32,000 nt of DNA from Bellilinea caldifistulae (GTDB taxonomy: Bacteria; Chloroflexota; Anaerolineae; Anaerolineales; Anaerolineaceae): positions 30,001 through 62,000 of the forward strand of contig NZ_LGHJ01000014.1 in the NCBI RefSeq assembly GCF_001306055.1, read 5' to 3'. Shown here piece after piece: positions 7,986 through 21,266 of the stretch (positions within the stretch are counted from its first letter, which is position 1; every line of letters starts with the position of its first letter). The position numbers were made by a program, and so were the translations under genes. Below the pieces are notes generated by a model. That model was not told where the DNA came from. It saw only the letters and a program-made list of their open reading frames with translations, and searched no databases.

Positions 7986-8801
7986 ATGGCATTACGGGGC
8001 AATCTGCGCGATTTTTCCATCACCCAACTCCTCAATCTGATCAATCTGGCGCATAAAAGCGGTACTCTGGTGATTGAAGGCACCAGCGAAGTTGCTCAGA
8101 TTACCTTTCGGGAAGGAAAACTGGCCTATGCCCAGATTGGCAGCGAGGAGAACGATCTGGCAGCCATCTTGCAGCGCAGCCGTAAAATCACACCCAATCA
8201 GGCGCGGGTCATTCGAGAAAGAACCCGGAAGATGAGCGATAAGGAAGTCGGTCTCTTGTTGATCAATGCCGGTTACCTGACCCAGAAAGATATTTTGGAA
8301 AGTGTACAGAATTATTGTGTGGATGTCGTCCGCCGTTTGTTTACGTGGGTGGAGGGTTCGTTTAACTTCAACCCGGATCAATTAACCCCCGATGGTAAGA
8401 TTCCGGTGCGCATTGACCTGGAGAACCTGATTATCGAGGGTTCACGCCAGTTGCGCGAATGGGAGCAGCTGCAGGAAGAGATCCCCAGTCTGGATATGGC
8501 ACTCAAATTTACCGAGCGCCCGGGTACCAACATCCGCAACCTGAACCTGAGTTTGGAAGAATGGCGGGTGGTGCGTTACGTCAACCCAAAGAATACCATC
8601 CGGCAAATTGCACACGCCACCAAAATGAACGATTTGGAAATCCGCCGGGTGGTATATGCCTTGTTACAAGCCGGGTTAGTGGAACTTGTCCGCCCGGGCG
8701 GTGTGCCGTTGGGCGGAATGGTGCGTCCGTTTCAGACCACCAATAAGCAGGAGCAGGTATCTCTGCTCAACCGTTTGATCAACAAGATTCGCTCGATCTA
8801 A
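7986..8801 (+). CDS. DUF4388 (PATAN)-domain protein with a C-terminal winged-helix-like region
   Basis: The N-terminus LRGNLRDFSITQLLNLINLAHKSGTLVIEG..ITFREGKLAYAQ matches the DUF4388/PATAN signature (G-x-L-x-D-F-s-l-x-x-l-L-q-l-l...k-t-G-x-L). C-terminal segment: EEWRVVRYVNPKNTIRQIAHATKMNDLEIRRVVYALLQAGLVEL. Confidence 0.7.
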   Translation: MALRGNLRDFSITQLLNLINLAHKSGTLVIEGTSEVAQITFREGKLAYAQIGSEENDLAAILQRSRKITPNQARVIRERTRKMSDKEVGLLLINAGYLTQKDILESVQNYCVDVVRRLFTWVEGSFNFNPDQLTPDGKIPVRIDLENLIIEGSRQLREWEQLQEEIPSLDMALKFTERPGTNIRNLNLSLEEWRVVRYVNPKNTIRQIAHATKMNDLEIRRVVYALLQAGLVELVRPGGVPLGGMVRPFQTTNKQEQVSLLNRLINKIRSI

Positions 8802-8824
8802 ACCCTGTTTCCTAAGGAAGCACG

Positions 8825-9364
8825 ATGCAGACAGTCAAAATTGTAGTTACCGGGCCATTCAATGCAGGCAAGACCGAATTCATCCAATCCGTCAGCGAGA
8901 TTGATGTGGTCTCTACCGAACGAAAGATTACCTCGGCCGCCGAAAAGGTGAAGGAAAGCACCACCGTCGCATTGGATTTTGGCCGTATTACGGTTGACGA
9001 TGATCTGGTGTTGTATTTATTTGGAACGCCCGGACAGAAACGGTTCGATTTCATGTGGGAAATCCTCTCCGAAGGGATGCTCGGGTTTGTGGTCATGGTG
9101 GACAGTACCCGCCCGGAAACCTTCCGCGAAGCGCGCACTATTTTGGAAACCTTCCGGGCGTATGCTCCTACCCCTTACGTGGTGGCAGCCAATAAGCAGG
9201 ATTGCAAAGACGCATGGGACATTGAGGATATGCGGCTGGCGCTGCGACTGGATCCTAAAGTTAAACTGCTCTCGTGCGTTGCCAAAGATAAAGAAAATGT
9301 CAAAAAAGTCCTGCTGGAATTGCTCTACAGCATTCTGGAAGAGATGGGGGAGGGTAATTCGTGA
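8825..9364 (+). CDS. Small Ras-superfamily GTPase of the MglA/CvnD type (COG2229-like)
   Basis: P-loop GPFNAGKT (aa 10-17). G3 is FGTPGQ (Thr in place of the Ras Asp, Gln retained), as in MglA/CvnD-type proteins. G4 is NKQD (aa 123-126). 179 aa. AAGGAAG SD precedes the ATG. Confidence 0.85.
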   Translation: MQTVKIVVTGPFNAGKTEFIQSVSEIDVVSTERKITSAAEKVKESTTVALDFGRITVDDDLVLYLFGTPGQKRFDFMWEILSEGMLGFVVMVDSTRPETFREARTILETFRAYAPTPYVVAANKQDCKDAWDIEDMRLALRLDPKVKLLSCVAKDKENVKKVLLELLYSILEEMGEGNS

Positions 9365-9387
9365 GCCAACGGGGGAGTTAAACCAGC

Positions 9388-10191
9388 GTGTCATCCATTA
9401 CGACTGATCAGGGCATCCTTCATTACGAAGTCTACGGTCGCGGCAAACCGGTTATTTTGCTCCACGGCTGGCTGGGATCATGGGGGTTGTGGCAGGAAAC
9501 CATGACCTATCTGGGTCAGTATTACCGCACCTACGCGCTGGATTTTTGGGGTTTTGGTGAATCGGGTAAAAAACTGGATACCTACGAGGTTAGTGAGTTT
9601 GTTTCGCTGGTGGACCAGTTTATGGACAAACTGGGTATCATCAGCGCGCCGCTGGTGGGGCACAGCATGGGGGGTACGGTCAGCCTTTCGGTGGCGTTGC
9701 GCTATCCTCAGCGGGTTGAAAAGGTCGTGATCATCGGCTCACCGGTGGTTGGTTCTTCGCTGGCGCTGCCGCTCAAACTGGCCGGCTGGCGGGTAGTGGC
9801 ATTCCTTTTGTTTAGTTTTTTCCCGGTTTTCCGGGCTGCCATGCGGATTGCTTCGCCGACTATTTGTCGTGACCCGCGATTCCCGGATATGATGGATCGC
9901 GATCTCTCCCGCACCACTCTCGAATCCTTTTTAACCAGCATTGCCTCACTGCGCCGCACCGACCTGCGCAATGAGATTCACCGGATTCAGGTGCCGGTGA
10001 TGGGGATGTTTGGCGACCGGGATAACATTGTCAACCCAAACCAGGGCAAAGCCCTGCAAAAGGGTTTGCCCAACGCGCGCATCGAGCGTTATCCCAATGC
10101 CGGACATTTCATCATGCTCGATGAACCTCGTCCTTTCATGCTCACCTTGAAAGAATTTCTGGATACGCCCTCGTCCAACCCTGTCCCATGA
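9388..10191 (+). CDS. Alpha/beta-fold hydrolase (paralogue 1, intact Ser-Asp-His triad)
   Basis: GTG start with GGGGGAG 10 nt upstream. HGW oxyanion region (VILLHGWLGSW). The nucleophile elbow is GHSMGG (Ser93, codon AGC at 9664-9666). Acid candidate GDRDNIV and His in NAGHFIMLDEP. Confidence 0.85.
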   Translation: MSSITTDQGILHYEVYGRGKPVILLHGWLGSWGLWQETMTYLGQYYRTYALDFWGFGESGKKLDTYEVSEFVSLVDQFMDKLGIISAPLVGHSMGGTVSLSVALRYPQRVEKVVIIGSPVVGSSLALPLKLAGWRVVAFLLFSFFPVFRAAMRIASPTICRDPRFPDMMDRDLSRTTLESFLTSIASLRRTDLRNEIHRIQVPVMGMFGDRDNIVNPNQGKALQKGLPNARIERYPNAGHFIMLDEPRPFMLTLKEFLDTPSSNPVP

Positions 10192-10760
10192 ATCCTTCTC
10201 CGCGTTTGAAATACTCCCCTGACCTTAACAGCCTTATTCTGGAAGGTTTGACCGAGTTTCTCGGTGACCAAAAGCTTGAAATGCTGCTGCAAGCCATGCC
10301 TGCTGATCGGTTGCGCTTTGACCTGGAAAGCCTGCATGAGGCATTACGGGCCGCTTATGGCAGCCAATCGGCTGCCGGGATTCTGGTGCGGGCTGGCAGA
10401 GCAGCCTTTGCGCGGCTGTTGCTGAAATTTGCTGCCGAATTGGGATTTGAAGATCAGGGTTTCCGTCTGCTGGCACCCCGCCGCAAGATGGGGGTGGCTT
10501 TGCAGAATCTGGCAGACTGGCTTCAACGGCAGGGGGCTGGTAGATTTGAGGTGCGGCGTGTGACGAACGGCTGGCAGTGGCTCCATCGGGTTGATTTTGA
10601 AGGTCAGACCGACAACAGAGCGACAATGGCCTGTCCTTTCCTGCTGGGGATGCTGCAAGAATTATCCTACTGGGTCAGCAGCGGCCGTATTCACCCCATC
10701 CGCGAGGAAGCGCATTCCCAAGGCTGCCTGCTGGAAATCGAGTCGAAACCGCTGGATTGA
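10188..10760 (+). CDS. V4R (4-vinyl-reductase)-like small-molecule-binding domain protein
   Basis: Its ATG overlaps the upstream TGA (ATGA at 10188-10191). The C-terminal pattern ...MACPFLLGMLQELSYWVSSGRIHPIREEAHSQGCLLEIE resembles the V4R signature (C-x-f-x-x-G-x-l-x-g...E-x-x-C-x-x-x-G-x-x-x-C-x-F-x-i), with one Cys position changed. Assignment by eye only. Confidence 0.5.
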   Translation: MNPSPRLKYSPDLNSLILEGLTEFLGDQKLEMLLQAMPADRLRFDLESLHEALRAAYGSQSAAGILVRAGRAAFARLLLKFAAELGFEDQGFRLLAPRRKMGVALQNLADWLQRQGAGRFEVRRVTNGWQWLHRVDFEGQTDNRATMACPFLLGMLQELSYWVSSGRIHPIREEAHSQGCLLEIESKPLD

Positions 10761-10769
10761 GAGGACCGG

Positions 10770-12047
10770 ATGCTGAAAATCATTTTACAGTGTCCCCGTT
10801 ACCTGGAACCTTTCAACGAGCGCGCCCGTGATTTGAGAATTTTCAATAAACCATTGTGGCTTCAACAGCGCGATGTGCTGGCGCCTTACACCACCCGCGA
10901 ACTGGAATTGCCCCCCGAAGCGCGCCTGCCGCAAACCGCTGAGCCGTGTATCGTTTACCGTGATAATTTGTTTTTTGACGAGGGCTTTATGCAGGCCTTC
11001 ATGCGGGAAGCCCTGCGCCGGCCGTACCCCTCACGGGCGGCGTTGTCCATCCATGACCCTGCTTTCCGGGAACATTGTTTGCCGCTTTCTACTTCCTATA
11101 CGCCGGCGGGGGATATTTATCTGGCGGATTTGTGGTACTACCCGCGCGGTCCCGAGCCGAGCGCCGAACCACTGGTGGTGGATTTGCAGGCGCGGGAAAT
11201 CGGCTATTACCATGTTCCGACTTATATGGCGAGTGAATCGGGTGATCTGGTCTATCAGGTGCCGCTGCGCAGTCTGATTGCGATTGATTCCTGGGTGCAT
11301 ATTTTCATCGCCGATACGGTGTTTGGCCTGTTTGGTCGCGGGGCGCGTTTTGAAGATCGTCTCAACCGTGATCCTTTCTTCAAACTCAGCATTCTGGCAA
11401 CCGCTTTGTATGAGGGTAAGCAGGTGCTGGAATGTTCTAAACTGGTACGGGTGGGACGCAACTGCTCGATTGACCCTACTGCCATCATTCACGGCCCCAC
11501 CACCATCGGGGATAATGTGACCATCGGGGCCGGGGCGGTGATTGAAAATTGTATCATCGGCGACAATGTCAATGTCTCACAGGGCTGCCAGTTGATGCTT
11601 TCAGTGGTGGGGGATGGCACCTTTCTGCCGTTTCGGGCCTCGTTATTCATGACCACCATCATGGATAACAGCATGGTTGCCCAAAACACCTGCTTGCAGA
11701 TGTGCGTGGTGGGGCGGAATACTTTCATCGGTGCGGGTTCCACCTTTACAGATTACAACCTGATTCCCTCACCCATCCGGGCGCGGGATGCCTACGGCCA
11801 ATTGCAGCCATCCAACCGCCCGGTGCTGGGGGGATGTGTGGGTCACAATTGCCGGATTGGGGCTGGTATGATCGTCTACCCGGCGCGGATGATCGAATCC
11901 GATGTGATTTTGTTCGCTTCCAAAGAACGGCGGGTGATTGACCGGGACATCCGCTATGAGGACAGCGATCACCATCGCTTGAAGGACGGTCATCTGCATC
12001 CACGTTTGTACCCGCGCCCCGGTGAGGCAGGCGTCGAAAGCTGGTGA
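10770..12047 (+). CDS. Left-handed beta-helix (hexapeptide-repeat) protein with a GlmU-like but degenerate N-terminal domain
   Basis: The C-terminal half has consecutive hexapeptide repeats (IHGPTTIGDNVTIGAGAVIENCIIGDNVNVSQGCQL...VVGRNTFIGAGSTF...VGHNCRIGAGMIV). The N-terminal 230 aa (MLKIILQCPRYLEPFNERARDLRIFNKPLW...) occupies the place of a nucleotidyltransferase domain. It lacks an obvious G-x-G-T-R-(x)n-K signature. GAGAGGA SD. Confidence 0.65.
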   Translation: MLKIILQCPRYLEPFNERARDLRIFNKPLWLQQRDVLAPYTTRELELPPEARLPQTAEPCIVYRDNLFFDEGFMQAFMREALRRPYPSRAALSIHDPAFREHCLPLSTSYTPAGDIYLADLWYYPRGPEPSAEPLVVDLQAREIGYYHVPTYMASESGDLVYQVPLRSLIAIDSWVHIFIADTVFGLFGRGARFEDRLNRDPFFKLSILATALYEGKQVLECSKLVRVGRNCSIDPTAIIHGPTTIGDNVTIGAGAVIENCIIGDNVNVSQGCQLMLSVVGDGTFLPFRASLFMTTIMDNSMVAQNTCLQMCVVGRNTFIGAGSTFTDYNLIPSPIRARDAYGQLQPSNRPVLGGCVGHNCRIGAGMIVYPARMIESDVILFASKERRVIDRDIRYEDSDHHRLKDGHLHPRLYPRPGEAGVESW

Positions 12048-12104
12048 GTCACTCCTTAATCCTTACAACTCCCTAACCAGACCGCCTTTGGACGGGTAAT
12101 TTTG

Positions 12105-12133
12105 TTGCCAGAAATGGCGGTTTTGCGTAAGAT
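12105..12133 (+). promoter_or_regulatory. Candidate internal sigma70-type promoter for the REC-GGDEF/kinase sub-operon
   Basis: TTGCCA (12105-12110), a 17-nt spacer, then TAAGAT (12128-12133). This implies a leader of about 100 nt before the ATG at 12241. Confidence 0.35.
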
Positions 12134-12240
12134 TAAGTGTTGTACCCGATTTCCACCGTCTGGATCCCCGGCTGGGCGGAATGGGTTACGCAAGATGCTC
12201 CGGGGGAAAGCCCATGCCTGATCTCTTGAGGGAGGCACCC

Positions 12241-13131
12241 ATGAGTAAAGCCCGCCTGTTGATTGTGGAAGATGACGTGGATATTTCCAACATGCTGCGC
12301 ATTTATTTTACCTCGCAGGGCTATGATGTGGATATTGCCCCACGCGGTTCGGATGCGCTGGAAAAGACCCGTCAGGTCATGCCCCATTTGTTGATTCTGG
12401 ATATCATGCTGCCGGATATTGACGGTTACGAGGTCTGCCGGGTGCTGCGCACCAATACCCGCACCAGCCACATTCCGGTGCTGTTCCTGACCCAGAAGGA
12501 CGAGCGCAGCGATAAACTCAAAGGTCTGGAACTGGGGGCGGACGACTACATCACCAAACCCTTTGATATCGAAGAGCTGAAACTGCGTGTCCAGAATGCC
12601 CTGGCGCGTTCCGAACGGGAAAGCCTGACCGACCCGCAAACCGGCCTCCCCTCCGGCCGGTTGATTGAGGATCAACTGCGCAAATTGATCCGTCAGAACG
12701 ACTGGGCATTTCTGGATATTCGCATCAATCACTTTGAGCCATTCAAGGATGTTTATGGTTTTATTGCCGGCAATGATGTGCTGCGGTTCACCGCCATGTT
12801 GTTGGGCGAAGTGGTGGATGAGCTTGGTACACAAAATGACTTTATCGGCCATGTTGGCGGAGATAACTTTGTCGTTTCCACGACGGCTCAGGCGGGGGCT
12901 GCCATCAAGACCCGCCTGAAAGCACGGTTCAAGGAAGAAGTACTCTCGCATTACAATTTTTTGGACCGTCAGCAGGGTTTTGTGCTGGCTCCGGGTAAAG
13001 ACGGCCAGATGACCCCCACTCCCTTTATGACTTTGGCGGTTGGTTTGGTCTCACCGCTGACCCATCAATTCGCCGATATTCGCGAAATTACCGAGATTGC
13101 TGCCGAAGAACGCCGCCGCGATTCAGTTTAG
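12241..13131 (+). CDS. Response regulator: receiver domain fused to a degenerate GGDEF domain (GGDNF)
   Basis: The start is moved to the ATG at 12241 (MSKARLLIVEDD), with GAGGGAGG at 12228-12235. REC features: DD at 11-12, the phospho-acceptor in LLILDIMLPDIDG (D54), and K in YITKPF. The GGDEF-like domain begins at DPQTGLPSGR. Its signature is GGDNF (codons GGC GGA GAT AAC TTT, 12856-12870), and there is no RxxD I-site (TQND in that position). Confidence 0.85.
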   Translation: MSKARLLIVEDDVDISNMLRIYFTSQGYDVDIAPRGSDALEKTRQVMPHLLILDIMLPDIDGYEVCRVLRTNTRTSHIPVLFLTQKDERSDKLKGLELGADDYITKPFDIEELKLRVQNALARSERESLTDPQTGLPSGRLIEDQLRKLIRQNDWAFLDIRINHFEPFKDVYGFIAGNDVLRFTAMLLGEVVDELGTQNDFIGHVGGDNFVVSTTAQAGAAIKTRLKARFKEEVLSHYNFLDRQQGFVLAPGKDGQMTPTPFMTLAVGLVSPLTHQFADIREITEIAAEERRRDSV

Positions 13132-13152
13132 GGATCGGTCAGGGATACCCGC

Positions 13153-16100
13153 ATGGTGTTTGAAAACCCGCTCATTCTGGGTGTTGTACTGGCAGGCAGC
13201 GGTTTGCTTTTTTGGCTTGCAGCTGCCGGCCTGATTCGTTGGGTATCCCGTTCCCCAAGACCGCACTCGATCCTCGTCCCGGCTGAAGAAGCGGATAATC
13301 CGAACGCCGACCCGATTTTAATTGTGGAAGCCGGTGGAAGGCTGGCGTGGATCAATTCCACGGCCCGGCAGTTGTTTGGCTTGAAGGAAGGCGAATCCGC
13401 CAATCTGGAGGGCCTCTCTCGTAAAATCCGCCCGGCAAACGCGTTGTTGAATTTATGTGCCACAGATGGCCAAACCCGCCTGATAGTTGAAGGTAAGGCC
13501 ATCGAGGCAGCTTCTCAGCGTTTACCGTTTGGTCAGCCGGAATGGAGGTTAATCACCTTTCGCTCTGGAGAAAGCGGCGGGATGATGGGCGCAGCCCAAA
13601 CCGGTCTACTGCCAGCGCAGACCTTGCAGGTTTTCCTGGACCTGACACAGGCCATGGCTGCCAGTCTGGATGTGGAGCAAACCCTGTTCTCCATCCTTGA
13701 CAATCTGGATCGTTTGGTGCCGGCCGATTTGCGCGAGATCAACCTGTACGATGAAGAAAGCCAGACTTTCATCCCCTATCGCATGCTGGCGATGGCGGAT
13801 GGCGAACGCAAACTGCTCCTGGCCAGTGAACGCTACGGCCGGGAGGAGGGTCTTTCGGGGGTCATCGCTGTCTCGCGTCAGCCATTGCTGGTGCCCGATT
13901 TGGAAAAAGCCACCGACTTAAGCACAATCCTTGACCGGCGTAAATATCCGGTTCGTTCATTTCTGGGCGTGCCGTTAGCAATCGGCGAGCAGTTCATCGG
14001 TACCCTTGAGCTGGCTTCCTTTGCCGCAGATGCCTTTCAGCCGCAGGATCGTGATCTGTTGACTTTGATTTCCGGCCAGGTGGCGGTTGCCATTCATAAT
14101 GCATTACTTTACCGGCAGGAACAACGCCGAACCGCCGAGCTGAACGGCCTGGCTCAACTGGCGCAGGCGTTCAGTTCGGTGCGCGATACGCGCGGTCTGT
14201 TCGAGCGTTTGGTCAGCGCCATTCAACCACTCGTGCGGGTACAAATCCTCGGATTTTTGCTTTATAACGAAGCCAGCCGCACGCTTCAGGCTCAGGTGCC
14301 GTTTGCCGGAATTCCCGAACAATTTTTGGAGATGTATCGGATAGCGGTGCAGCCCGGCAGTCCCCTGGAAACCGCTCTGCTGGCTCAGGATGTGCTGATC
14401 AGCGACCATGCCGCAGAAGATGAGCGCTGGATCGAACTGGGATTACAGCCCATTGCGGTTGCTGCCGGCCTGCGGGATACGGTGATGATGCCCCTCGCGG
14501 TCAGCGGGCGGGTACTGGGCTATTTGCAGGCTGCCAATCATTTGCAGGAAGGCAGCAGTTTTAATCAGGATGAATTACATTTGTTGATGATCGTAGCCAA
14601 TCAGGTTGCCCCGATCATTGATAATGCGTCTTTGTTGCAACAATCCCGCCTGCGCGCTCAACGCGCCGAAGGTTTGCGGCGGATTGCCAGCCTGTCCAGT
14701 TCAGCGGCAACCCTGGATGAGATTCTCAAGTTCTCGCTGCAGGAGCTGGTGCGCCTTTTACAGGCCGACCTGGCTGCTGTATTTCTGCTGGATCAGAACC
14801 GGGTTGTCCTGCAATTGCACCGTCCTTCTCAATATGGCGATGCGGGGGAGGTGCCGGAGCGCCTGACCCGCCTGCTGGCGGAGGATGCTCAGTTTCCGTT
14901 TACTTCGGCCGGCAGCCAGCACATCATTCAGCTCAATCAAGCGGTAGAGGAAAAACCGATTGTTCCCTTTTACCAGCAGCTGATTCAATCGTGGAGGATT
15001 GAATCGCTGATTGTCGTGCCGTTGGTGGTACGAGATGAGGGCATTGGTGAAATCTGGATTGCCAGCCGCCAGCCCAACTTTTTTGACCCGGGTGATGTGC
15101 AACTGATGGCAACAGCTGCCGGGCAACTGGCGGGGGTGGTGGAACGCAGTTACCTGCTGATGCAGACGGATGAGACTCTCCGGCGGCGGGTGGAGCAGAT
15201 GACCTCCCTGACCCGCATCACCCGCGAATTAAGCACCTCGCTGGACTTGAAGCACCTGCTGCAACTGGTGTATGACGAAGCCCTGCGTACCACGCGCGCC
15301 GATTGCGGTACCATCCTGTTCTTTGAGCTGGAACAACCACCTGAGGCGACTCCGCAAATTCGCTTTTGGGTGGGCGACCCGCCGCCGTCGCAACTTTCTT
15401 CCCTTGAATTGCAGGTGATTGCCAGCGGAATGGGTTATGTGCTGCGCGATGTGCACAACCCGGATTATTACCTGCCCCACGAAGGCGTGCAGTCGGTGCT
15501 GCTGGTGCCGATTTACCATCAAGACCGGGCCGGCGGACTGATTTGCCTGCATAGCTCGGAGAGGGAACATTTCGATGAATCGGCGATGGACATTGCCCAA
15601 TCATTGGCGGCTCAGGCGACGATTGCGCTTTCCAATGCGGTGCATTACGAAGAACAGACCCGCCGTGGTACTTTACTCAAGCGCCAGTTGGATACCCTCG
15701 CTGAGTTGTATCAGGTTTCACGCTTTTTACGCCCCAATCAACCGCTGGAAAAAGCCTTGGAAGCCATTGCCGAAGCGATTGTGGATGCCACCCCCTTCCG
15801 GGCGGTGTTGATCAGCGTCTATGATCCGGACGGTAATTGTTTGCACCGGGTAGCCCATAAGGGAATTTCGCCTGAGATGTGGGAGGAATTGCGTTCGCGG
15901 GTTCAGCCATGGCGCGGCATATTGCAGTTATGCCAGCCGGAATATCGTGTGGGGGATGTGTACTTCATCCCCGCCGACAAGCAGCCGCTGGTGCCGGAGG
16001 AAGTTCACACCATTACCGTTTTGCCCGGCAGTGAACAGCAGGGCGAGTATTTATGGAATGCTGATGATTTTCTGCTTGCGCCGTTATATGACTCCAATGG

Positions 16101-19100
16101 GGAGCCGCTGGGGTTGATCAGCGTGGACGACCCGCGCGATGCCCGGCGCCCGGACCGTCCGACACTGGATGCGCTGGAAATTTTTGCGGTGCAGGCTTCG
16201 CTGCTGATTGAAAACCACCGTCATCTGGAAAAAACCCAGACCGAATTACGGCAATTGCTTGAAGAAAATCAACAATTGCGTACCTCGGCAGAGGCAGCCC
16301 GCCAGCAAATCCCGCAGTTGCTTCAGCGTCAGGTGGAGGATCTGCTCGAAATTCGCCGCCTGTTTCGGCAGGTGGAACGGGTGCGTGCCGGATTGGAAAT
16401 TGCCGCACAGGCCAGTTTGCAGCAAAATACCCGGGCTGCGCTGATCAGCATGGGACGTGCCTTGCTGGAACATTTTGCCTTGTCCATGGCGCTGGTTGCC
16501 GAGGGGGATGCTTCCGGCGGACGTCTGATCGAGGTAATCGGCGAAATCCCTCCCGGCAGCAATCCCGAAGCGTTGTTCGGTCAGCGCAATCCACTGCGTC
16601 AGGCTTTACTGGATGGCCGTCTCATCCTTTCGCCGCAGGTGGAAGAGGATCCTATCTGGCGCGGAACTCCGCTGTTGAACGGCTTGGGCAGTCGCAGTTT
16701 TGTGGTCTTCCCGTTTGAAATTTCCTCGGAGCACCGGGCGGCGGTGATGGTTTGCGGCGCAGAACCGATGGAAGCCTTTGAAGCCGAGGACGCTCAGGTT
16801 TACGAACAACTGTGCCGGCAGGTGAGTATCAGTCTGCAGAACCTCGAATTGCTTGCTGAAACCCGCCGGCGGTTGGGAGATGTTAATTTACTGCTGGAAT
16901 TTAGCCGCAAGTTGGGCAGTCTGGATACCGGTAGCATTCTGCAGAGTCTGCTGGAAAGCGCCTTACAAGTGCTGCCATCCGCCGATGCCGGCTGGGTGGG
17001 GTTGATCGAGGAAAATGGCGGCAGGATTGTGCCCATGCATGCAAGCGGTTACACGGATGTCGAGGCTTTGCTGCAAATTCGCTACGATCCGGAGCGGACA
17101 CCACCGCCATTGCCCCTGCGGGTTGTGCAATCGGGTAATCCACTGAGGGTAAATGAGATTCATTTCGCCGCAGATTACAACCTCTCCGCCGAGGATTTGA
17201 TACGATATCAGAAAGCCAGCCGCGCAAGACTTCCGATCTCGGTACTGGTCTTGCCAATCCGCCTTGGTGAACGCTGTATGGGCGTGCTGGTGTTGGAGAA
17301 TTTCGATCAGGCCGAGGCTTTCAGCGCCGAGCATGAAAGTCTGGCGCTCTCGCTCGCTCAGCAGGCTGCACTGGCGCTGGAAAATGCCCGTCTGTTCCGC
17401 TCCATTCAACAGCGGACGGCTCAGTTACAGGCGTTAACGCAGGTCTCTTCGACGATTACTTCCAGCCTGCAAACCGATGCACTGATCGCCAGCCTGCTGG
17501 AGCAATTGCAAAAGGTGGTGCCATTCGATACGGCAACCCTCTGGCTGCGCAAAGGTGATTGGATCGAAGTCGCTGCTGCGCGCGGTTTTGATGACGATCA
17601 GGCGCGGATCGGATTGACCGCGCGGGTTGAGGATAGTATCTTGTTTCAGGAAATGAGCCGTTCAGGTCTGGCCATTTCGGTTCCGGATGTCCGCGCTGAT
17701 GCCCGTTTTACCCGCCTGCTGGTGCCGGATTATCTTTCCTGGCTGGGGATACCCCTGATTGCCAAATCCGAATTGATTGGGGTGATCGCGCTGGAGAAAC
17801 GCGACCCTGATTTTTATACGGAGGATTACATTCAGGCGGCGATGACCTTTGCCGGGCAGGCAGCGGTAGCCTTAGAAAATGCGCGCCTGTTCGAGGAAAG
17901 TCAGCGCCGGGCTGCCGAACTCGATCAACGTTCCAGCCGTCTGGCTTTGCTCAACCGCTTCTCGGCTGATTTAGGCGCATCCCTGGAGGTGCTCCCCATT
18001 CTCCAACTGACCTGTGAGCGGCTGGCGGATGCGTTGGATGTTACACGGGTTGGAGCGGTGTTGATTGACGATCAGGAGCGCCTGCTTTTGGTCACGGAAA
18101 GTCCACCGGTTGAGGATGCCCTCCCCATAACCCTGCCGGCAATCCCGCTCATCCAGCAATTACGCGATTCGCAGGGCGTGTTCAACACCGAAGATGCGGA
18201 AGCAGAAACTGGATTGGCTGAATGGCGGACGGCGTTCCTCGCCAGCCGTAAGGTGCGCGCCCTGGTGATCATCCCCCTGATCAGCGGGCAGGAAATTTCT
18301 GGCTGGCTGATGCTGCAATCCGAGCAGAAAAAGCGGTTCACCGCCCAGGAAATTGAATTGGTGCGGACGATCAGCAATCAGGCGGCAATTGCCATGCAAA
18401 ATGCCCGCCGTTTTGAAGAAATCCGTACCCTCAAAGAGGATTTGGAGCGCCGGGTAGAAGAACGCACGGCGGCGCTGAGTCGGGAGCATCACAAATCCCA
18501 GACGATGCTCAAAGTGACCACCGAACTTTCGGCCAGTCTGGATATTCATCAAGTCCTCAGCCGTTCGTTGAGTGTTTTGAATGAAGCCCTGCAAATTGAT
18601 GAAAGTCTGATCGTCCGCGATGCCGGACGGGTCGTTGTTCGGGCCGGTCAACTTCTGGAAAGTTCGGCCTCACCCGAAGGCCATACCCTCGAACACCAGA
18701 TTCACCAGTATCTGATGCGGGTCCGAAAACCGCTGTGGATTGAGGATGTCCATCTGGATTCACGCTGGCAAACCGATCCGCATCAACCACCGGCATACCG
18801 CAGTGTTGCAGCCATTCCCCTGATTCTGGGCGAAGAATCGCTCGGTACACTTATGCTGCTCCATCGCGAAAAGGGGCATTTTCAAGCGGAGCAGACCGGG
18901 TTGTTGGAAGGGATTGCCCGCCAAATTGCCATCACCCTCAATAATGCCGAATTGTTTGGTTTAATCCGCGATCAGGCTGAAAACCTGGGTGCCATGCTGC
19001 GTGATCAGCAAATCGAGGCATCCCGCTCGCGCGGTATTCTGGAAGCCGTTGCAGATGGCGTGATTGTCACGGACGTCAATCAGATCATTACGTTGTTCAA

Positions 19101-20091
19101 TGCTTCTGCCGAAGCCATTTTGGAGGTAAACAGCAACAAGGTGATCGGTAAGCCGCTCGAACAGATTGCATCGTCGTTCGAGGGGAGTGGCAGTCAGTGG
19201 ATGACGGTGATTCAGCGCTGGTCGGAGGGAAGTTATCCCTCGCCGGGCGAAGCCTACGCCGAACAGATCACCCTCAATAACGGGCGGGTGGTCGCGCTGC
19301 ATCTGGCGCCGGTCATCTGGCGCAATGAATTTCTGGGTACCGTATCCATCCTGCGGGATATGACCCACCAGGTGCAGGTGGAACGTCTGAAATCGGAGTT
19401 CATCGCCAATGTCTCCCACGAACTGCGTACCCCCCTGACTTCAATTAAGGGATATACCGATATTTTGTTGATGGGCGCTGGTGGCGAGTTGACCGAAAAA
19501 CAGGTTCACTTCATTGAAATTTTACGAGAAAACGCAGAGCGCTTGAACATACTGGTTAATGACCTGCTGGATGTCTCCCGCATTCAATCCGGTAAAGTCA
19601 TGCTTGAGGCTCAGCCGCTGGATTTGCGCCTTCTGGCCGAAGAGATTTTGGGCGAAATGCGTCAGCGTTCGGTGGAAACCGGAAAACCGATGCAGTTTTT
19701 ACTGGAAGCGCCGCCTTCCTTGCCGCATGCGCGTGGAGACCGCGAACGCACCCTGCAAATTTTACGCAGTCTGGTCAGTAACGGCTTCAATTACACTCCC
19801 GAAAACGGTCAGGTGAAGGTACGGATTTCGGCTCGCGAACATGAGGTACAGGTAGATGTCATTGACAATGGGATTGGCATTCCGCCCAAAGACCATTCCC
19901 GCATTTTCGACCGTTTTTACCGTGGTGAAAGTCCTCTGGTCATGGCAACCCCCGGCACCGGTTTGGGACTGGCGCTTTCCAAAATTCTGGTCGAAATGCA
20001 GGAAGGCCGCATCTGGTTTTCTTCCACCGGGGTACCCGGTGAGGGCAGTGTATTTTCCTTTACTCTGCCAATCTACCCTTTGGAAGGTTGA
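13153..20091 (+). CDS. Giant sensor histidine kinase (2312 aa): N-terminal TM helix, PAS-like region, ten tandem GAF domains, PAS, HisKA, HATPase_c
   Basis: TM helix LILGVVLAGSGLLFWLAAAGLI (aa 7-28). PAS-like segment ILIVEAGGRLAWINSTARQLFGL. Ten units each end in a helix of the form (Q)xAxAxxNAxL(F/Y), near aa 320, 495, 668, 832, 1022, 1232, 1414, 1580, 1752 and 1934. PAS at about aa 1950-2070 (GILEAVADGVIVTD...). H-box SEFIANVSHELRTPLTSIKGY, with His2089 at codon CAC 19417-19419. N-box LVSNGFNYTP, G1 DNGIGIP, G2 GTGLGLALSK. AGGGA SD before the ATG. Confidence 0.92.
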   Translation: MVFENPLILGVVLAGSGLLFWLAAAGLIRWVSRSPRPHSILVPAEEADNPNADPILIVEAGGRLAWINSTARQLFGLKEGESANLEGLSRKIRPANALLNLCATDGQTRLIVEGKAIEAASQRLPFGQPEWRLITFRSGESGGMMGAAQTGLLPAQTLQVFLDLTQAMAASLDVEQTLFSILDNLDRLVPADLREINLYDEESQTFIPYRMLAMADGERKLLLASERYGREEGLSGVIAVSRQPLLVPDLEKATDLSTILDRRKYPVRSFLGVPLAIGEQFIGTLELASFAADAFQPQDRDLLTLISGQVAVAIHNALLYRQEQRRTAELNGLAQLAQAFSSVRDTRGLFERLVSAIQPLVRVQILGFLLYNEASRTLQAQVPFAGIPEQFLEMYRIAVQPGSPLETALLAQDVLISDHAAEDERWIELGLQPIAVAAGLRDTVMMPLAVSGRVLGYLQAANHLQEGSSFNQDELHLLMIVANQVAPIIDNASLLQQSRLRAQRAEGLRRIASLSSSAATLDEILKFSLQELVRLLQADLAAVFLLDQNRVVLQLHRPSQYGDAGEVPERLTRLLAEDAQFPFTSAGSQHIIQLNQAVEEKPIVPFYQQLIQSWRIESLIVVPLVVRDEGIGEIWIASRQPNFFDPGDVQLMATAAGQLAGVVERSYLLMQTDETLRRRVEQMTSLTRITRELSTSLDLKHLLQLVYDEALRTTRADCGTILFFELEQPPEATPQIRFWVGDPPPSQLSSLELQVIASGMGYVLRDVHNPDYYLPHEGVQSVLLVPIYHQDRAGGLICLHSSEREHFDESAMDIAQSLAAQATIALSNAVHYEEQTRRGTLLKRQLDTLAELYQVSRFLRPNQPLEKALEAIAEAIVDATPFRAVLISVYDPDGNCLHRVAHKGISPEMWEELRSRVQPWRGILQLCQPEYRVGDVYFIPADKQPLVPEEVHTITVLPGSEQQGEYLWNADDFLLAPLYDSNGEPLGLISVDDPRDARRPDRPTLDALEIFAVQASLLIENHRHLEKTQTELRQLLEENQQLRTSAEAARQQIPQLLQRQVEDLLEIRRLFRQVERVRAGLEIAAQASLQQNTRAALISMGRALLEHFALSMALVAEGDASGGRLIEVIGEIPPGSNPEALFGQRNPLRQALLDGRLILSPQVEEDPIWRGTPLLNGLGSRSFVVFPFEISSEHRAAVMVCGAEPMEAFEAEDAQVYEQLCRQVSISLQNLELLAETRRRLGDVNLLLEFSRKLGSLDTGSILQSLLESALQVLPSADAGWVGLIEENGGRIVPMHASGYTDVEALLQIRYDPERTPPPLPLRVVQSGNPLRVNEIHFAADYNLSAEDLIRYQKASRARLPISVLVLPIRLGERCMGVLVLENFDQAEAFSAEHESLALSLAQQAALALENARLFRSIQQRTAQLQALTQVSSTITSSLQTDALIASLLEQLQKVVPFDTATLWLRKGDWIEVAAARGFDDDQARIGLTARVEDSILFQEMSRSGLAISVPDVRADARFTRLLVPDYLSWLGIPLIAKSELIGVIALEKRDPDFYTEDYIQAAMTFAGQAAVALENARLFEESQRRAAELDQRSSRLALLNRFSADLGASLEVLPILQLTCERLADALDVTRVGAVLIDDQERLLLVTESPPVEDALPITLPAIPLIQQLRDSQGVFNTEDAEAETGLAEWRTAFLASRKVRALVIIPLISGQEISGWLMLQSEQKKRFTAQEIELVRTISNQAAIAMQNARRFEEIRTLKEDLERRVEERTAALSREHHKSQTMLKVTTELSASLDIHQVLSRSLSVLNEALQIDESLIVRDAGRVVVRAGQLLESSASPEGHTLEHQIHQYLMRVRKPLWIEDVHLDSRWQTDPHQPPAYRSVAAIPLILGEESLGTLMLLHREKGHFQAEQTGLLEGIARQIAITLNNAELFGLIRDQAENLGAMLRDQQIEASRSRGILEAVADGVIVTDVNQIITLFNASAEAILEVNSNKVIGKPLEQIASSFEGSGSQWMTVIQRWSEGSYPSPGEAYAEQITLNNGRVVALHLAPVIWRNEFLGTVSILRDMTHQVQVERLKSEFIANVSHELRTPLTSIKGYTDILLMGAGGELTEKQVHFIEILRENAERLNILVNDLLDVSRIQSGKVMLEAQPLDLRLLAEEILGEMRQRSVETGKPMQFLLEAPPSLPHARGDRERTLQILRSLVSNGFNYTPENGQVKVRISAREHEVQVDVIDNGIGIPPKDHSRIFDRFYRGESPLVMATPGTGLGLALSKILVEMQEGRIWFSSTGVPGEGSVFSFTLPIYPLEG
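13615..18957 (+). other. Array of ten GAF-domain-coding units inside the kinase gene, split 5+5 by a coiled-coil-like insert
   Basis: Approximate unit boundaries in aa: 155-320, 330-495, 505-670, 680-835, 845-1025, then a heptad-like Q/R/E/L-rich linker (1025-1090, TQTELRQLLEENQQLRTSAEAARQQIPQLLQRQVEDLLEIRRLFRQVERVRAGLE), then 1090-1235, 1240-1415, 1420-1582, 1590-1755 and 1780-1935. Boundaries were estimated by eye from the recurring C-terminal helices. Confidence 0.7.
19384..20076 (+). other. HisKA + HATPase_c catalytic core of the giant kinase
   Basis: H, N, G1 and G2 boxes are all present and canonical (see the CDS entry), so the kinase is predicted to be catalytically competent. Confidence 0.85.
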
Positions 20092-20097
20092 GTGGAA

Positions 20098-20478
20098 ATG
20101 GCGAAAATTTTAGTGGCTGAGGATGAAAAGGATATCCGTGACTTGCTCTCATTTACCTTGCAATTTGCCGGTCACACTGTGATTACCGTGAACAACGGGG
20201 AGGAAGCCTGGCAGGCTGCTCCCAGCGTCATGCCGGATTTGATTTTAATGGATGTGCGCATGCCGCGAATGACCGGTTATGAGGCCTGTCAACGCATCAA
20301 AGCCGACCCGCAAACCGCTCACATTCCGGTGGTGTTTCTCTCTGCCAAAGGGCAGGAAGCCGAGATTCAACAAGGCCTGCAAGCCGGCGCCAGCGAGTAC
20401 CTGCTGAAGCCCTTTGCGCCGGATGAGCTGACCCGCCGGGTGGCAGAATTGCTGGAACGCTTTGCCCAAAAGAAGTAA
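20098..20478 (+). CDS. Single-domain CheY-like response regulator
   Basis: The ATG at 20098 (MAKILVAEDEKD) lies 6 nt after the kinase TGA (20089-20091), with GGAAGG 10 nt upstream. The track's GTG at 20092 is an alternative. Phospho-acceptor in LILMDVRMPRMTG. Conserved S (FLSAKG) and K (YLLKPF). No output domain. Confidence 0.9.
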   Translation: MAKILVAEDEKDIRDLLSFTLQFAGHTVITVNNGEEAWQAAPSVMPDLILMDVRMPRMTGYEACQRIKADPQTAHIPVVFLSAKGQEAEIQQGLQAGASEYLLKPFAPDELTRRVAELLERFAQKK

Positions 20479-20480
20479 CC

Positions 20481-21266
20481 ATGAGCGCAATCCTGATTGA
20501 GCAAGATATCATTCACTATGAAGTACTGGGACGCGGCCGCCCGATTCTCTTTTTACATTCGTGGGTCGGTTCGTGGCGCTACTGGATTCCGATGATGCAG
20601 GCCGCTTCGGTCGGTTATCGGGCTTACGCGCTGGATTTGTACGGTTTTGGCGATAGCGCCAAGAATCGCCAGTACTCGCTGGAAGCGCAGGCCGGTCTGG
20701 TTGAGGCTTTTCTGGAAAAACTGGGGATTGGCAGGGTGGCGATTGTTGGACACGGATTGGGGGCACTGGTTGGCCTGCTGTTTGCGCTGCGCCATCCGGG
20801 GGTGGTGGATCGCGTGATGGCAGTCGGTTTTCCGCTGGATGAAACCATGATCAGCGGGCGGCTACGCAATACCTCACCGGTTGATCTGGCAGAAAGCATG
20901 CTGGGCAAGACGCCGCTCAGTGAGCCGGTTACTACCGATGCCGCCAAGACCGATCCGGCGGCGATTGTCGGTTCACTCAGTGATGTGGTGCTGCAATATG
21001 CAGGTGGTTTATGGGCGAAGTTAAACACGGCCTGTCTGCTGGTGCACGGCAACCGCGATGCACTGGTGCAGCCACCACGGCTGGACCAGATTGAAAAATT
21101 GCCGGAACACGCCCACCTGATTCAATTTGAAGAAGGCGGTCATTTTGTCATGCTGGACGACAGCAGTAAATTCAACCGGCTGATGAACGATTTTCTGAGC
21201 CTGCCTTCGGGAGAAAGCCCGCAGCAATTGCAGTTGAAGGAAGAATGGAAGCGCCGCGTGCGCTGA
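20481..21266 (+). CDS. Alpha/beta-fold hydrolase paralogue 2, nucleophile Ser replaced by Gly (predicted pseudo-hydrolase)
   Basis: It starts 2 nt after the CheY stop. The N-terminal ~110 aa align clearly with the 9388 gene (ILIEQDIIHYEVLGRGRPILFLHSWVGSWRYW vs ITTDQGILHYEVYGRGKPVILLHGWLGSWGLW; YALDLYGFGDS vs YALDFWGFGES). The nucleophile elbow reads GHGLGA (Gly92, codon GGA at 20754-20756) instead of GHSMGG. The Asp (HGNRDALV) and His (GGHFVMLDD) positions are retained. Confidence 0.8.
   Translation: MSAILIEQDIIHYEVLGRGRPILFLHSWVGSWRYWIPMMQAASVGYRAYALDLYGFGDSAKNRQYSLEAQAGLVEAFLEKLGIGRVAIVGHGLGALVGLLFALRHPGVVDRVMAVGFPLDETMISGRLRNTSPVDLAESMLGKTPLSEPVTTDAAKTDPAAIVGSLSDVVLQYAGGLWAKLNTACLLVHGNRDALVQPPRLDQIEKLPEHAHLIQFEEGGHFVMLDDSSKFNRLMNDFLSLPSGESPQQLQLKEEWKRRVR

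What the first reader, a model, noticed from the sequence alone, without database searches (positions are those of the whole stretch)
20481..21266. Second alpha/beta-hydrolase paralogue with nucleophile Ser replaced by Gly: an enzyme/pseudoenzyme pair bracketing the island
Seen: the products of 9388-10191 and 20481-21266 are clear paralogues over the first ~110 aa. Copy 1 has the canonical elbow G-H-S-M-G-G (AGC at 9664-9666). Copy 2 has G-H-G-L-G-A (GGA at 20754-20756, two nucleotide changes away from AGC, so this is not a one-base sequencing error). The Asp and His triad positions are kept in both. The middle (lid) regions differ completely. Established knowledge: the nucleophile Ser is indispensable for alpha/beta-hydrolase catalysis. 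Hydrolase-fold proteins can act as signal receptors: RsbQ works with RsbP in Bacillus subtilis, D14/KAI2 work in plants, and the catalytically dead GID1 is the gibberellin receptor. Inference: copy 2 is a non-catalytic ligand-binding or scaffold subunit. The pair, each closing a sub-operon, may feed a small-molecule signal into the GTPase/kinase system.
Basis: partly seen in the sequence, partly recalled or inferred. Interest (0 to 1): 0.68.

Follow-up and report, generated by a model that had tools for sequence, protein, structure and literature searches.

The report
Serine-less hydrolase-fold partner of giant kinase
The gene encodes a hydrolase-shaped protein that lost its catalytic serine long ago, has been conserved across a whole class of filamentous bacteria (Anaerolineae), is almost always encoded right after a giant sensor kinase and its small response regulator, and probably works as a non-hydrolysing signalling partner.

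Summary
Genes 9388-10191 (ABH1, G-H-S-M-G-G) and 20481-21266 (ABH2, G-H-G-L-G-A) are alpha/beta-hydrolase paralogues. Gly92 of ABH2 sits exactly on the nucleophile elbow, and Asp193 and His221 are kept.

This is not a strain-specific loss or a sequencing error. Gly is invariant in 120/120 orthologues and is written with all four Gly codons. ABH1 orthologues keep Ser in 120/120.

- ABH2 belongs to an uncharacterised family, assigned to Chloroflexota/Anaerolineae wherever a source names an organism. It is defined by an invariant C-terminal peptide (L-K-E-E-W-K-R-R-V-R) and a W-x-G-S-W-R-Y-W motif.
- The family is almost always encoded after a 2300-3500-aa multi-GAF histidine kinase, usually with a CheY in between.
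- Family-wide, the nucleophile position is the only free residue of the elbow (G 166, S 69, A 60, T 5, D 5 of 305), while Asp and His are about 99% conserved.
- Sister clades carry 100-250-aa low-complexity inserts in the lid.

Best reading: a non-hydrolytic accessory or adaptor subunit of the kinase relay, analogous to but not homologous with the RsbQ-PAS module. A Ser-independent His-Asp dyad enzyme remains possible. Errors in the finding: "island", "each closing a sub-operon" and "Ser indispensable".

The parts
20481..21266 (+). ABH2: a 261-aa alpha/beta-hydrolase-fold protein without a nucleophile, carrying the family's C-terminal tail
   Evidence: Pfam Abhydrolase_1 E=1.3e-23. AF2 model pLDDT 92.5. 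Foldseek top hits are PcaD, PFE esterase and AidH. 120 orthologues at 57-97% identity.
20754..20756 (+). GGA codon for Gly92 at the nucleophile elbow (G-H-G-L-G-A)
   Evidence: Sequence read. Invariant Gly in 120/120 orthologues. All four Gly codons are used in orthologous loci. Aligns with the elbow Ser of CumD and RsbQ (CumD S103 from my own knowledge; RsbQ S96 per PMC3183031).
20556..20585 (+). H26-S-W-V-G-S-W-R-Y-W35: the oxyanion-loop/helix A motif. R33-Y34 are specific to the ABH2 family; ABH1 has G-L here.
   Evidence: H26, W28, G30, W32 and W35 are present in 305/305, R33 in 304/305 and Y34 in 297/305. The genome scan used this motif as its pattern and returned 586 confirmed relatives.
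21057..21059 (+). GAT codon for Asp193, the triad acid position
   Evidence: 120/120 in orthologues and 301/305 in the family. Aligns with the acid-position Asp of CumD (Asp224, from my own knowledge).
21141..21143 (+). CAT codon for His221, the triad His position
   Evidence: 120/120 in orthologues and 302/305 in the family. Aligns with the G-H motif His of CumD (His252, from my own knowledge).
21228..21263 (+). C-terminal peptide L250-Q-L-K-E-E-W-K-R-R-V-R261, which defines the family and is absent from ABH1
   Evidence: W256 and R258 are present in 305/305, R259 in 298/305 and K253 in 293/305. It lies in the last ~20 residues, the only low-confidence stretch of the model (10-residue block mean pLDDT 66; final residue 45), so it is predicted to be flexible. 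It is absent in 120/120 ABH1 orthologues.
20092..20478 (+). Stand-alone CheY-like receiver with an intact acidic pocket (D11-E12, D54, K106). Its stop codon lies 2 nt before the ABH2 ATG.
   Evidence: Pfam Response_reg E=6e-30. Sequence. The CheY-ABH2 gap has a median of 19 nt in 84 loci.
13153..20091 (+). 2312-aa cytoplasmic-type histidine kinase with 9 GAF domains, then PAS, HisKA and HATPase
   Evidence: Pfam. An orthologous kinase lies upstream of ABH2 in about 80 Anaerolineae loci. Kinases of 3145-3502 aa precede distant family members.
12181..13131 (+). Response regulator with a degenerate GGDEF domain (signature G-G-D-N-F). First gene of module B.
   Evidence: Pfam. Sequence. GGDNF is found in 51 of 68 orthologues.
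9388..10191 (+). ABH1: the Ser-bearing paralogue (G-H-S93-M-G-G, AGC at 9664-9666). It lies in the middle of module A.
   Evidence: 120/120 orthologues have G-H-S-x-G-G and none has the tail. ABH1-type proteins are the nearest outgroup of the ABH2 family.
7986..9364 (+). Start of module A: a PATAN (DUF4388)-HTH protein (7986-8801) and an MglA/Ras-like small GTPase (8825-9364)
   Evidence: Pfam DUF4388 E=9e-27; ATP_bind_1, Ras and Arf hits. The same order is seen in L032, L067, L087 and L088.
10188..12047 (+). End of module A: a divergent V4R-like protein (10188-10760) and a 425-aa left-handed beta-helix (hexapeptide) protein (10770-12047)
   Evidence: BLASTP to the Pfam-V4R protein of L087 gives E=8e-11. 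Hexapep and LbH_EIF2B hits.

Best explanation
ABH2 is a non-hydrolytic alpha/beta-hydrolase-fold protein. It most likely acts as an accessory (adaptor or regulatory) subunit of the multi-GAF histidine kinase / CheY phosphorelay encoded just upstream.

Shown: it is an intact, strongly constrained protein with the hydrolase fold. There is no side chain at the nucleophile elbow. It carries an invariant, flexible C-terminal basic peptide (L-K-E-E-W-K-R-R-V-R) and an invariant W-x-G-S-W-R-Y-W surface motif. Its gene is co-operonic with the kinase and CheY across the class Anaerolineae and in more distant relatives.

Inferred: the family's conserved job does not need covalent (acyl-enzyme) catalysis, because the nucleophile position drifts among G, A, S, T and D while everything around it is fixed. 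The protein works by binding. The C-terminal peptide and the WRYW surface dock it to the kinase and/or CheY. The retained Asp-His pair and the pocket either hold a ligand or are structural. The protein thereby modulates kinase output, in the manner of the RsbQ-PAS sensing module but without hydrolysis.

ABH1, its Ser-bearing paralogue in the neighbouring PATAN/GTPase module, is probably still a true hydrolase.
For: Position 92:
- Elbow position confirmed by the model and by alignments.
- Gly92 in 120/120 orthologues, written with four synonymous codons.
- Family-wide entropy at position 92 is 1.62 bits (G166/S69/A60/T5/D5). By contrast G90, H91, L93 and G94 are nearly invariant.
- S, A and G states are interspersed on the tree, and Ser-bearing forms are basal. 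This implies repeated loss without loss of the gene.

Family features:
- Tail residues W256 and R258 are present in 305/305. The tail is predicted to be disordered, as docking peptides typically are.
- Sister clades carry 100-250-aa low-complexity P/T/S/A/E inserts in the lid. That is hard to reconcile with a precise capped substrate pocket.

Gene context:
- The order RR-GGDEF / GAF kinase / CheY / ABH2 holds in about 80 genomes, with a median CheY-ABH2 gap of 19 nt.
- The same kinase-(CheY)-ABH arrangement holds for distant members with D, S or G at the elbow.
- ABH2-like Gly domains are fused to TIR and CHAT effector domains elsewhere. This suggests use as a regulatory or binding module.

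Precedent: the RsbQ-PAS module is coupled to histidine kinases, with direct hydrolase-PAS contact (PMC3183031).
Against: - No binding partner or ligand has been shown, and a complex prediction could not be run.
- Asp193 and His221 are about 99% conserved long after Ser was lost. Classic dead hydrolase-fold proteins often let these decay, so the dyad may still do chemistry.
- 69 of the 305 sampled family members keep Ser and could be active enzymes. The function may therefore differ between clades.
- One relative (L090) lacks CheY, and one (L067) lacks both kinase and CheY next to ABH2. The partner is therefore not pinned down.
- The 305 sequences were pooled from three searches, so the residue counts are not an unbiased census.
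Confidence: 0.5

Rival explanations
1. ABH2 is still an enzyme. It uses the retained His221-Asp193 dyad as a general base, either activating water or acting as a lyase, decarboxylase or isomerase on a small molecule. The elbow only needs to be small. It may make or destroy a ligand for the kinase's GAF/PAS domains.
For: - Asp193 is present in 301/305 and His221 in 302/305, ranking 27th and 26th most conserved of 261 positions.
- H26 of the oxyanion loop and L93 are nearly invariant.
- Only small residues or Asp are tolerated at position 92.
- Fold members that function with a D/E-His dyad and no Ser are documented (PMC11878206).
- When position 92 is Asp, position 193 is Asn in 4 of 5 cases, which hints that the two sites interact.
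Against: - The lid that should shape a substrate pocket is the least conserved region: 9% identity to ABH1, with only five invariant positions in the lid (R127, L136, A154, K156, D158).
- In sister clades the lid is interrupted by long disordered inserts.
- No known dyad-type family is a close relative; the nearest solved structures are ordinary Ser or Asp hydrolases.
- An Asp-His pair is also kept in some purely binding members of the fold (own knowledge: neuroligins have Gly in place of Ser).
- The D92/N193 cases may be a single lineage.
Confidence: 0.25
2. ABH2 is a hydrolysis-independent small-molecule receptor. Ligand binding in the pocket changes its interaction with the kinase or CheY and so feeds a chemical signal into the relay.
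For: - Same context evidence as the best explanation.
- S-to-G or S-to-A elbow mutants of solved hydrolases (AidH S102G, CumD S103A, PhaZ S102A) appear among the structural neighbours, some as substrate complexes. This shows that such pockets can bind without turnover.
- The Asp-His pair is retained and could hydrogen-bond a ligand.
- The RsbQ and D14/KAI2 precedents.
Against: - ABH2 is not a member of the RsbQ/D14/KAI2 family. It shows only superfamily-level similarity to RsbQ (BLASTP E=8e-10 over 116 aa; hhalign E=2.9e-13), against E=3.7e-28 to CumD.
- Lid variability and disordered lid inserts argue against one conserved ligand.
- No ligand candidate emerges from the gene neighbourhood.
Confidence: 0.2
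3. ABH2 is a decaying relic or an annotation or sequencing artefact with no function.
For: - It lacks the nucleophile.
- Among the cluster proteins compared it is usually the least conserved: 52-59% identity against 70-73% for ABH1 in the same genome pairs.
Against: - There is an intact ORF in every locus examined.
- 120 orthologues show about 70 nearly invariant positions.
- There is synonymous codon turnover at Gly92.
- Operon position and the tail are conserved across the class.
Confidence: 0.02

Closest known systems
RsbQ-PAS bipartite sensing module (B. subtilis RsbQ/RsbP and 45 homologous pairs; PMC3183031)
   Same: A stand-alone alpha/beta hydrolase of about 260-270 aa is encoded next to a cytoplasmic signalling protein that carries a PAS domain. 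Outputs in that family include histidine kinases and diguanylate cyclases. The hydrolase contacts the sensor protein directly. Here ABH2 follows a GAF-PAS histidine kinase in one operon.
   Different: [quoted passage not shown] ABH2 is only remotely similar to RsbQ and is closer to C-C, epoxide and enol-lactone hydrolases. A CheY gene usually lies between kinase and hydrolase. ABH2 has a C-terminal basic peptide that RsbQ lacks. The kinase is a 9-GAF giant.
D14/KAI2 butenolide receptors and GID1 gibberellin receptor (plants)
   Same: These are hydrolase-fold proteins used as signal receptors. GID1 works without hydrolysis (own knowledge).
   Different: D14/KAI2 are RsbQ-family proteins with an intact triad and hydrolyse their ligand. 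GID1 belongs to the hormone-sensitive-lipase branch and lost His, not Ser (own knowledge). ABH2 lost Ser and keeps Asp and His. No ligand is known.
Serine-less alpha/beta-hydrolase-fold proteins: CGI-58/ABHD5, NDRG proteins, neuroligins, and the DUF687 and DUF3530 families
   Same: The fold is retained, the nucleophile is replaced, and the proteins act by binding or co-activating partners (PMC11878206; PMC3069448 listed; the neuroligin Ser-to-Gly change is own knowledge).
   Different: These are unrelated lineages. None is tied to a two-component system or has the W-x-R-R-x-R C-terminal peptide. In ABH2's family the elbow residue is polymorphic (G/A/S/T/D) rather than fixed.
Dyad-type hydrolase-fold lyases and decarboxylases (e.g. 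methylketone synthase MKS1; 'carboxy lyases' in PMC11878206)
   Same: There is no Ser at the elbow, yet His and an acid or amide residue are retained and the protein is catalytically active (MKS1 details are own knowledge).
   Different: No specific sequence relationship was detected. ABH2's lid is hypervariable and its context is signalling, not metabolism.
ABH1 (window 9388-10191), the in-cluster paralogue
   Same: Nearest relative family in the databases. 45% identity over the first 120 residues. Same H-x-W-x-G-S-W motif. Same Asp and His positions.
   Different: Ser is kept in 120/120. It has no C-terminal tail and a different lid. It sits in the PATAN / small GTPase / V4R / hexapeptide module rather than after the kinase, and it is more conserved (75-94% among the top 120 hits, against 57-97% for ABH2).

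Membership tests
alpha/beta-hydrolase fold superfamily (Pfam clan AB_hydrolase) | Core twisted beta-sheet flanked by helices, detectable by profile and by structure | tested here: met
   Abhydrolase_1 at 84 bits against a cut-off of 25.8. AF2 model pLDDT 92.5 with the canonical strand/helix order. Foldseek probability 1.00 and TM about 0.78 to PcaD and PFE esterase.
alpha/beta-hydrolase fold superfamily (catalytically competent members) | Nucleophile (Ser, Cys or Asp) at the sharp turn between strand 5 and helix C (G-x-Nuc-x-G) | tested here: not met
   Gly92 occupies that turn. It aligns with the elbow Ser of CumD and RsbQ and the elbow Asp of epoxide hydrolases. Gly in 120/120 orthologues.
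alpha/beta-hydrolase fold superfamily (catalytically competent members) | Acid after strand 7 and His after strand 8 | tested here: met
   D193 and H221 align with the acid-position Asp and the G-H motif His of CumD (Asp224/His252, from my own knowledge). They are present in 301/305 and 302/305 family members.
RsbQ / D14 / KAI2 family | Specific sequence relationship to RsbQ | tested here: not met
   The RsbQ sequence was verified against 1wom. BLASTP to ABH2 gives E=8e-10 over the N-terminal 116 aa only. hhalign gives E=2.9e-13. RsbQ is absent from the best 60 PDB hits, which reach E=3.7e-28.
RsbQ / D14 / KAI2 family | Intact Ser-Asp-His triad required for signalling | tested here: not met
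   Gly sits at the Ser96-equivalent position. The triad requirement is stated in PMC3183031.
RsbQ-PAS module (functional design) | Hydrolase gene adjacent to a gene for a PAS-containing signalling protein (phosphatase, kinase or cyclase) | tested here: met
   The kinase 13153-20091 has a PAS domain at residues 1958-2073 before HisKA. The operon order is conserved in about 80 genomes. A CheY gene intervenes, and whether the PAS domain is of the RsbP type was not tested.
RsbQ-PAS module (functional design) | Direct physical contact between the hydrolase and the sensor domain | not testable with these tools
This needs pull-down experiments or AlphaFold-Multimer.
Hydrolase-fold pseudoenzymes | Loss of a catalytic residue together with long-term purifying selection on the rest of the protein | tested here: met
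   About 70 nearly invariant positions in 120 orthologues. Four synonymous Gly codons. Conserved synteny.
Hydrolase-fold pseudoenzymes | Absence of any catalytic activity | not testable with these tools
   Requires enzyme assays or activity-based probes. The conserved Asp-His dyad leaves this open.
Anti-phage defence or conflict systems | Match to known defence-system protein models | tested here: not met
   PADLOC gives no hit for ABH1, ABH2, the GTPase, the V4R-like protein or the hexapeptide protein, and only weak generic hits for the receiver and HTH domains.

The most novel reading that the evidence does not exclude
The tail-bearing hydrolase-fold family is a hydrolysis-independent regulatory subunit of the giant multi-GAF histidine kinases of Anaerolineae. 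Its invariant C-terminal W-x-R-R-x-R peptide and WRYW surface dock onto the kinase or CheY. Its retained Asp-His pocket reads a metabolite. In effect this would be a bacterial, two-component-linked counterpart of GID1-type receptors, one that has repeatedly discarded its catalytic serine.
Probability: 0.25. Interest if true: 0.65.

Novelty: new variant of a known kind. Interest (0 to 1): 0.5.

Why it matters
Hydrolase-fold proteins that signal rather than hydrolyse are important in plants (D14, KAI2, GID1) and in Bacillus (RsbQ), but few bacterial examples are understood. This family offers a natural experiment. The same operon position is filled, in different lineages, by Ser, Ala, Gly, Thr or Asp versions of one protein. 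One can therefore ask directly whether hydrolysis is needed for signalling.

The family also gives a first handle on the 2300-3500-residue multi-GAF kinases, for which I found no functional study in the literature searches made here. These kinases are conserved throughout Anaerolineae, a widespread group of filamentous bacteria (own knowledge). It also defines a new C-terminal short linear motif whose partner can be sought.

Tried and rejected
- **Sequencing error or strain-specific loss:** rejected, because Gly is invariant and uses four codons.
- **Another residue supplying the nucleophile:** the only invariant Ser residues (S2, S31) are also present in ABH1 and lie off the elbow. There is no invariant Cys.
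- **Membership in the RsbQ/D14 family:** rejected.
- **Mobile or horizontally acquired island:** rejected. There is no compositional anomaly, no tRNA gene, and the flanks are syntenic.
- **Defence system:** no PADLOC support.
- **Curated family name:** NCBIfam gives only sub-threshold generic hits.
- **Promoter and terminator scan:** counts were no higher than in shuffled sequence, and only weak promoter-like sites lie before 7986 and 12181.
- **Literature:** searches for a described family with this architecture found none. The review of prokaryotic small GTPases notes the PATAN-MglA linkage, and my term searches of it ('hydrolase', 'esterase') found no mention of a hydrolase.
- **Taxonomy of the most distant members:** not obtained. 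Every source name that gives an organism says Anaerolineae or Chloroflexota.
- **Context of the TIR and CHAT fusions:** the contigs were too short to be informative.
Full report

Yes. ORFs 9388-10191 and 20481-21266 (both + strand) translate to proteins of 267 and 261 residues. Both clear the Pfam Abhydrolase_1 and Abhydrolase_6 thresholds.

They align over their full length: 29% identity, E=4e-41. A global alignment scores 23.5 standard deviations above shuffled controls. Identity is 45% in residues 1-120, 9% in the lid (121-185) and 20% in the C-terminal third.

Copy 1 (ABH1) reads G-H-S-M-G-G with AGC at 9664-9666. Copy 2 (ABH2) reads G-H-G-L-G-A with GGA at 20754-20756.

**2. Is Gly92 really at the nucleophile position?**

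Three independent lines say so.
- An AlphaFold2 model built on 28 family members (mean pLDDT 92.5, pTM 0.91) places G92 in the turn between strand 86-91 and helix 93-104. That is the classical nucleophile elbow.
- A profile of the family aligns G92 with the G-N-S-F-G-G elbow Ser of the C-C hydrolase CumD, D193 with the Asp of its G-x-x-D motif and H221 with the His of its G-H motif. That these three CumD residues are its catalytic triad (Ser103, Asp224, His252) is from my own knowledge.
- Single-sequence searches align G92 with the elbow Asp of epoxide hydrolases and with the VGHSVGAL elbow Ser of RsbQ, which PMC3183031 numbers S96 (the RsbQ sequence was verified against PDB 1wom).

Foldseek finds only ordinary members of the fold: enol-lactonase PcaD, Pseudomonas aryl esterase, AidH and epoxide hydrolases. 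No other invariant Ser or Cys is a candidate replacement. S2 and S31 are shared with ABH1.

**3. Strain-specific accident or conserved state?**

Conserved. The window is from a Bellilinea-like member of the Anaerolineae; the closest genome record has 97% protein identity.
- All 120 best ABH2 homologues (57-97% identity) have Gly at position 92, Asp at 193 and His at 221.
- In 82 orthologous genomic loci the Gly codon is GGC 30, GGG 26, GGT 16 and GGA 10. The amino acid has therefore been held by selection through extensive synonymous turnover.
- All 120 best ABH1 homologues have Ser at the elbow: G-H-S-M-G-G in 119 and G-H-S-R-G-G in one.
- The two proteins occur on the same contigs in at least seven assemblies (matching contig lengths) and side by side in loci L017, L032 and L054.

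The 'one Ser copy, one Gly copy' pairing is thus a class-wide feature.

**4.

An exhaustive profile-free search of 1.84 billion representatives and a search seeded with a distant member show that ABH2 belongs to a family with two marks that ABH1 lacks.
- An invariant C-terminal peptide, here L-Q-L-K-E-E-W-K-R-R-V-R. It follows a poorly conserved linker and lies in the last ~20 residues, the only low-confidence stretch of the model.
- An R-Y pair inside the motif H-x-W-x-G-S-W-R-Y-W.

Counts in 305 full-length tail-bearing sequences:

| Position | State |
|---|---|
| W256, R258 | 305/305 |
| G94 | 305/305 |
| H91 | 304/305 |
| G90 | 302/305 |
| L93 | 290/305 |
| D193 | 301/305 |
| H221 | 302/305 |
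| Position 92 | G 166, S 69, A 60, T 5, D 5 |

The nucleophile position is the one relaxed residue in an otherwise frozen elbow. These sequences were pooled from three searches, so the counts are not an unbiased census.

On a rough neighbour-joining tree, ABH1-type proteins are the outgroup and the basal tail-bearing members carry Ser. S, A and G states are interspersed in several clades. The clade containing the window is uniformly Gly.

Sister clades of 330-500 residues carry 100-250-residue low-complexity P/T/S/A/E-rich inserts in the lid. Every source name that gives an organism says Anaerolineae or Chloroflexota.

**5. Genomic context.**

The + strand cluster 7986-21266 consists of two modules.

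| Module | Genes, in order |
|---|---|
| A | PATAN (DUF4388)-HTH protein; MglA/Ras-like small GTPase; ABH1; divergent V4R-like protein; 425-residue hexapeptide beta-helix protein |
| B | response regulator with degenerate GGDEF (G-G-D-N-F); 2312-residue kinase (9 GAF, PAS, HisKA, HATPase); stand-alone CheY; ABH2 |

- Gene junctions are tight. The ABH1 stop overlaps the next start at 10188-10191. The kinase stop at 20091 abuts the CheY start at 20092. The CheY stop lies 2 nt before the ABH2 ATG.
- Module B order is conserved in about 80 Anaerolineae genomes. The median CheY-ABH2 gap is 19 nt.
- Distant family members are likewise preceded by giant GAF kinases and usually a CheY:
  - L084: Asp at the elbow, kinase of 3502 aa.
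  - L086: Ser, kinase of 3145 aa.
  - L087: Ser, complete two-module cluster including a Roadblock-like gene.
  - L089: Ser, hybrid kinase.
  - L090: Gly, no CheY.

- Module A can lie elsewhere in the genome, so the two modules are separable.
- The region has ordinary GC content and skew, no tRNA gene, and syntenic downstream genes in relatives. It is not a horizontally acquired island.
- ABH1 does not close a sub-operon.

**6. How it most likely works.**

*Shown.* ABH2 is a constrained, intact protein with the hydrolase fold and no side chain at the elbow. It carries a flexible, invariant basic C-terminal peptide and is co-operonic with a giant cytoplasmic-type kinase and a single-domain response regulator.

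*Inferred.* The elbow residue drifts freely among small residues while the protein, its tail and its operon position persist. The family's conserved function therefore cannot depend on an acyl-enzyme intermediate. A flexible, invariant terminal peptide is typical of a docking motif. Disordered lid inserts in sister clades argue against a precisely capped substrate pocket.

I therefore favour a non-hydrolytic accessory or adaptor subunit of the kinase/CheY relay (confidence about 0.5). The closest functional precedent is the RsbQ-PAS module, in which a stand-alone hydrolase contacts the PAS domain of an adjacent phosphatase, histidine kinase or diguanylate cyclase (PMC3183031). ABH2 is not a member of that family, and RsbQ needs its triad.

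**7. Rivals.**

The main rival is that ABH2 remains an enzyme using the His-Asp dyad (confidence about 0.25).
- The pair is about 99% conserved.
- Dyad-only members of the fold exist, and CGI-58 lacks Ser (PMC11878206).
- When position 92 is Asp, position 193 is Asn in 4 of 5 sequences.

A decaying relic is excluded.

**8. Novelty and score.**

Serine-less hydrolase-fold proteins and hydrolase-plus-sensor pairs are known kinds. I found no description or curated model of this family.

What is new:
- a polymorphic elbow with a fixed dyad;
- an invariant W-x-R-R-x-R C-terminal peptide;
- a Ser-bearing paralogue in a linked small-GTPase module;
- an obligate association with 2300-3500-residue multi-GAF kinases.

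I class it as a new variant of a known kind, with interest 0.5. It is a clean, testable natural experiment on whether hydrolysis matters for hydrolase-fold signalling, but it is not a categorical surprise.

Noticed in passing
window 12181-13131: The response regulator that opens module B has a degenerate GGDEF signature (G-G-D-N-F), and only the first ~106 of 161 profile positions match. GGDNF is conserved in 51 of 68 orthologues. It is probably a second non-catalytic 'enzyme' domain in the same operon. Orthologues are about 296 aa, so the real start may be the ATG at about 12241.
   Followed up: partly
window 13153-20091; L084, L086, L089: The kinase has nine GAF domains (2312 aa). Its counterparts next to distant ABH2 relatives reach 3145-3502 aa. 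The purpose of such GAF arrays is unknown.
   Followed up: partly
window 7986-12047; L087 4-4694; L088 8573-12655: Module A combines a PATAN-HTH protein, an MglA-like GTPase, a Ser hydrolase, a V4R-like protein and a beta-helix protein whose repeat region matches the eIF2B-epsilon LbH model. L087 also has a Roadblock/MglB-like gene that the window lacks. The PATAN-MglA linkage is in the literature, but my term searches of that review found no mention of a hydrolase or esterase.
   Followed up: partly
proteins P0163, P0200, P0207 (relatives; loci L084, L086): Sister clades of the ABH2 family carry 100-250-residue low-complexity P/T/S/A/E-rich inserts in the lid region, with no Pfam domain.
   Followed up: partly
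proteins P0133, P0165 (TIR-ABH) and P0226 (ABH-CHAT); loci L091, L092: Gly-type ABH2-like domains (36-47% identity) occur fused to TIR or CHAT (caspase-like) domains and lack the tail. A published survey notes that caspase-like domains in bacterial conflict systems always have a neighbouring alpha/beta-hydrolase gene (PMC7159879). The contigs were too short for context.
   Followed up: partly
L067 5768-10789: This is a variant locus in which ABH2 directly follows the hexapeptide gene, with no RR-GGDEF, kinase or CheY in between. ABH1 appears split by a frameshift into two tblastn pieces at 7177-7332 and 7331-7780.
   Followed up: no
family alignment, positions 92 and 193: When the elbow residue is Asp, the acid position is Asn in 4 of 5 sequences. 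This may be compensatory covariation, or it may be a single lineage.
   Followed up: no
proteins P0172, P0196, P0203, P0242, P0251: A basal sub-group has the W-x-R-R motif followed by a short extra extension (…Q-R-E-[YF]-L or similar) instead of ending at the motif. One of them (L090) has no CheY between the kinase and the hydrolase.
   Followed up: partly
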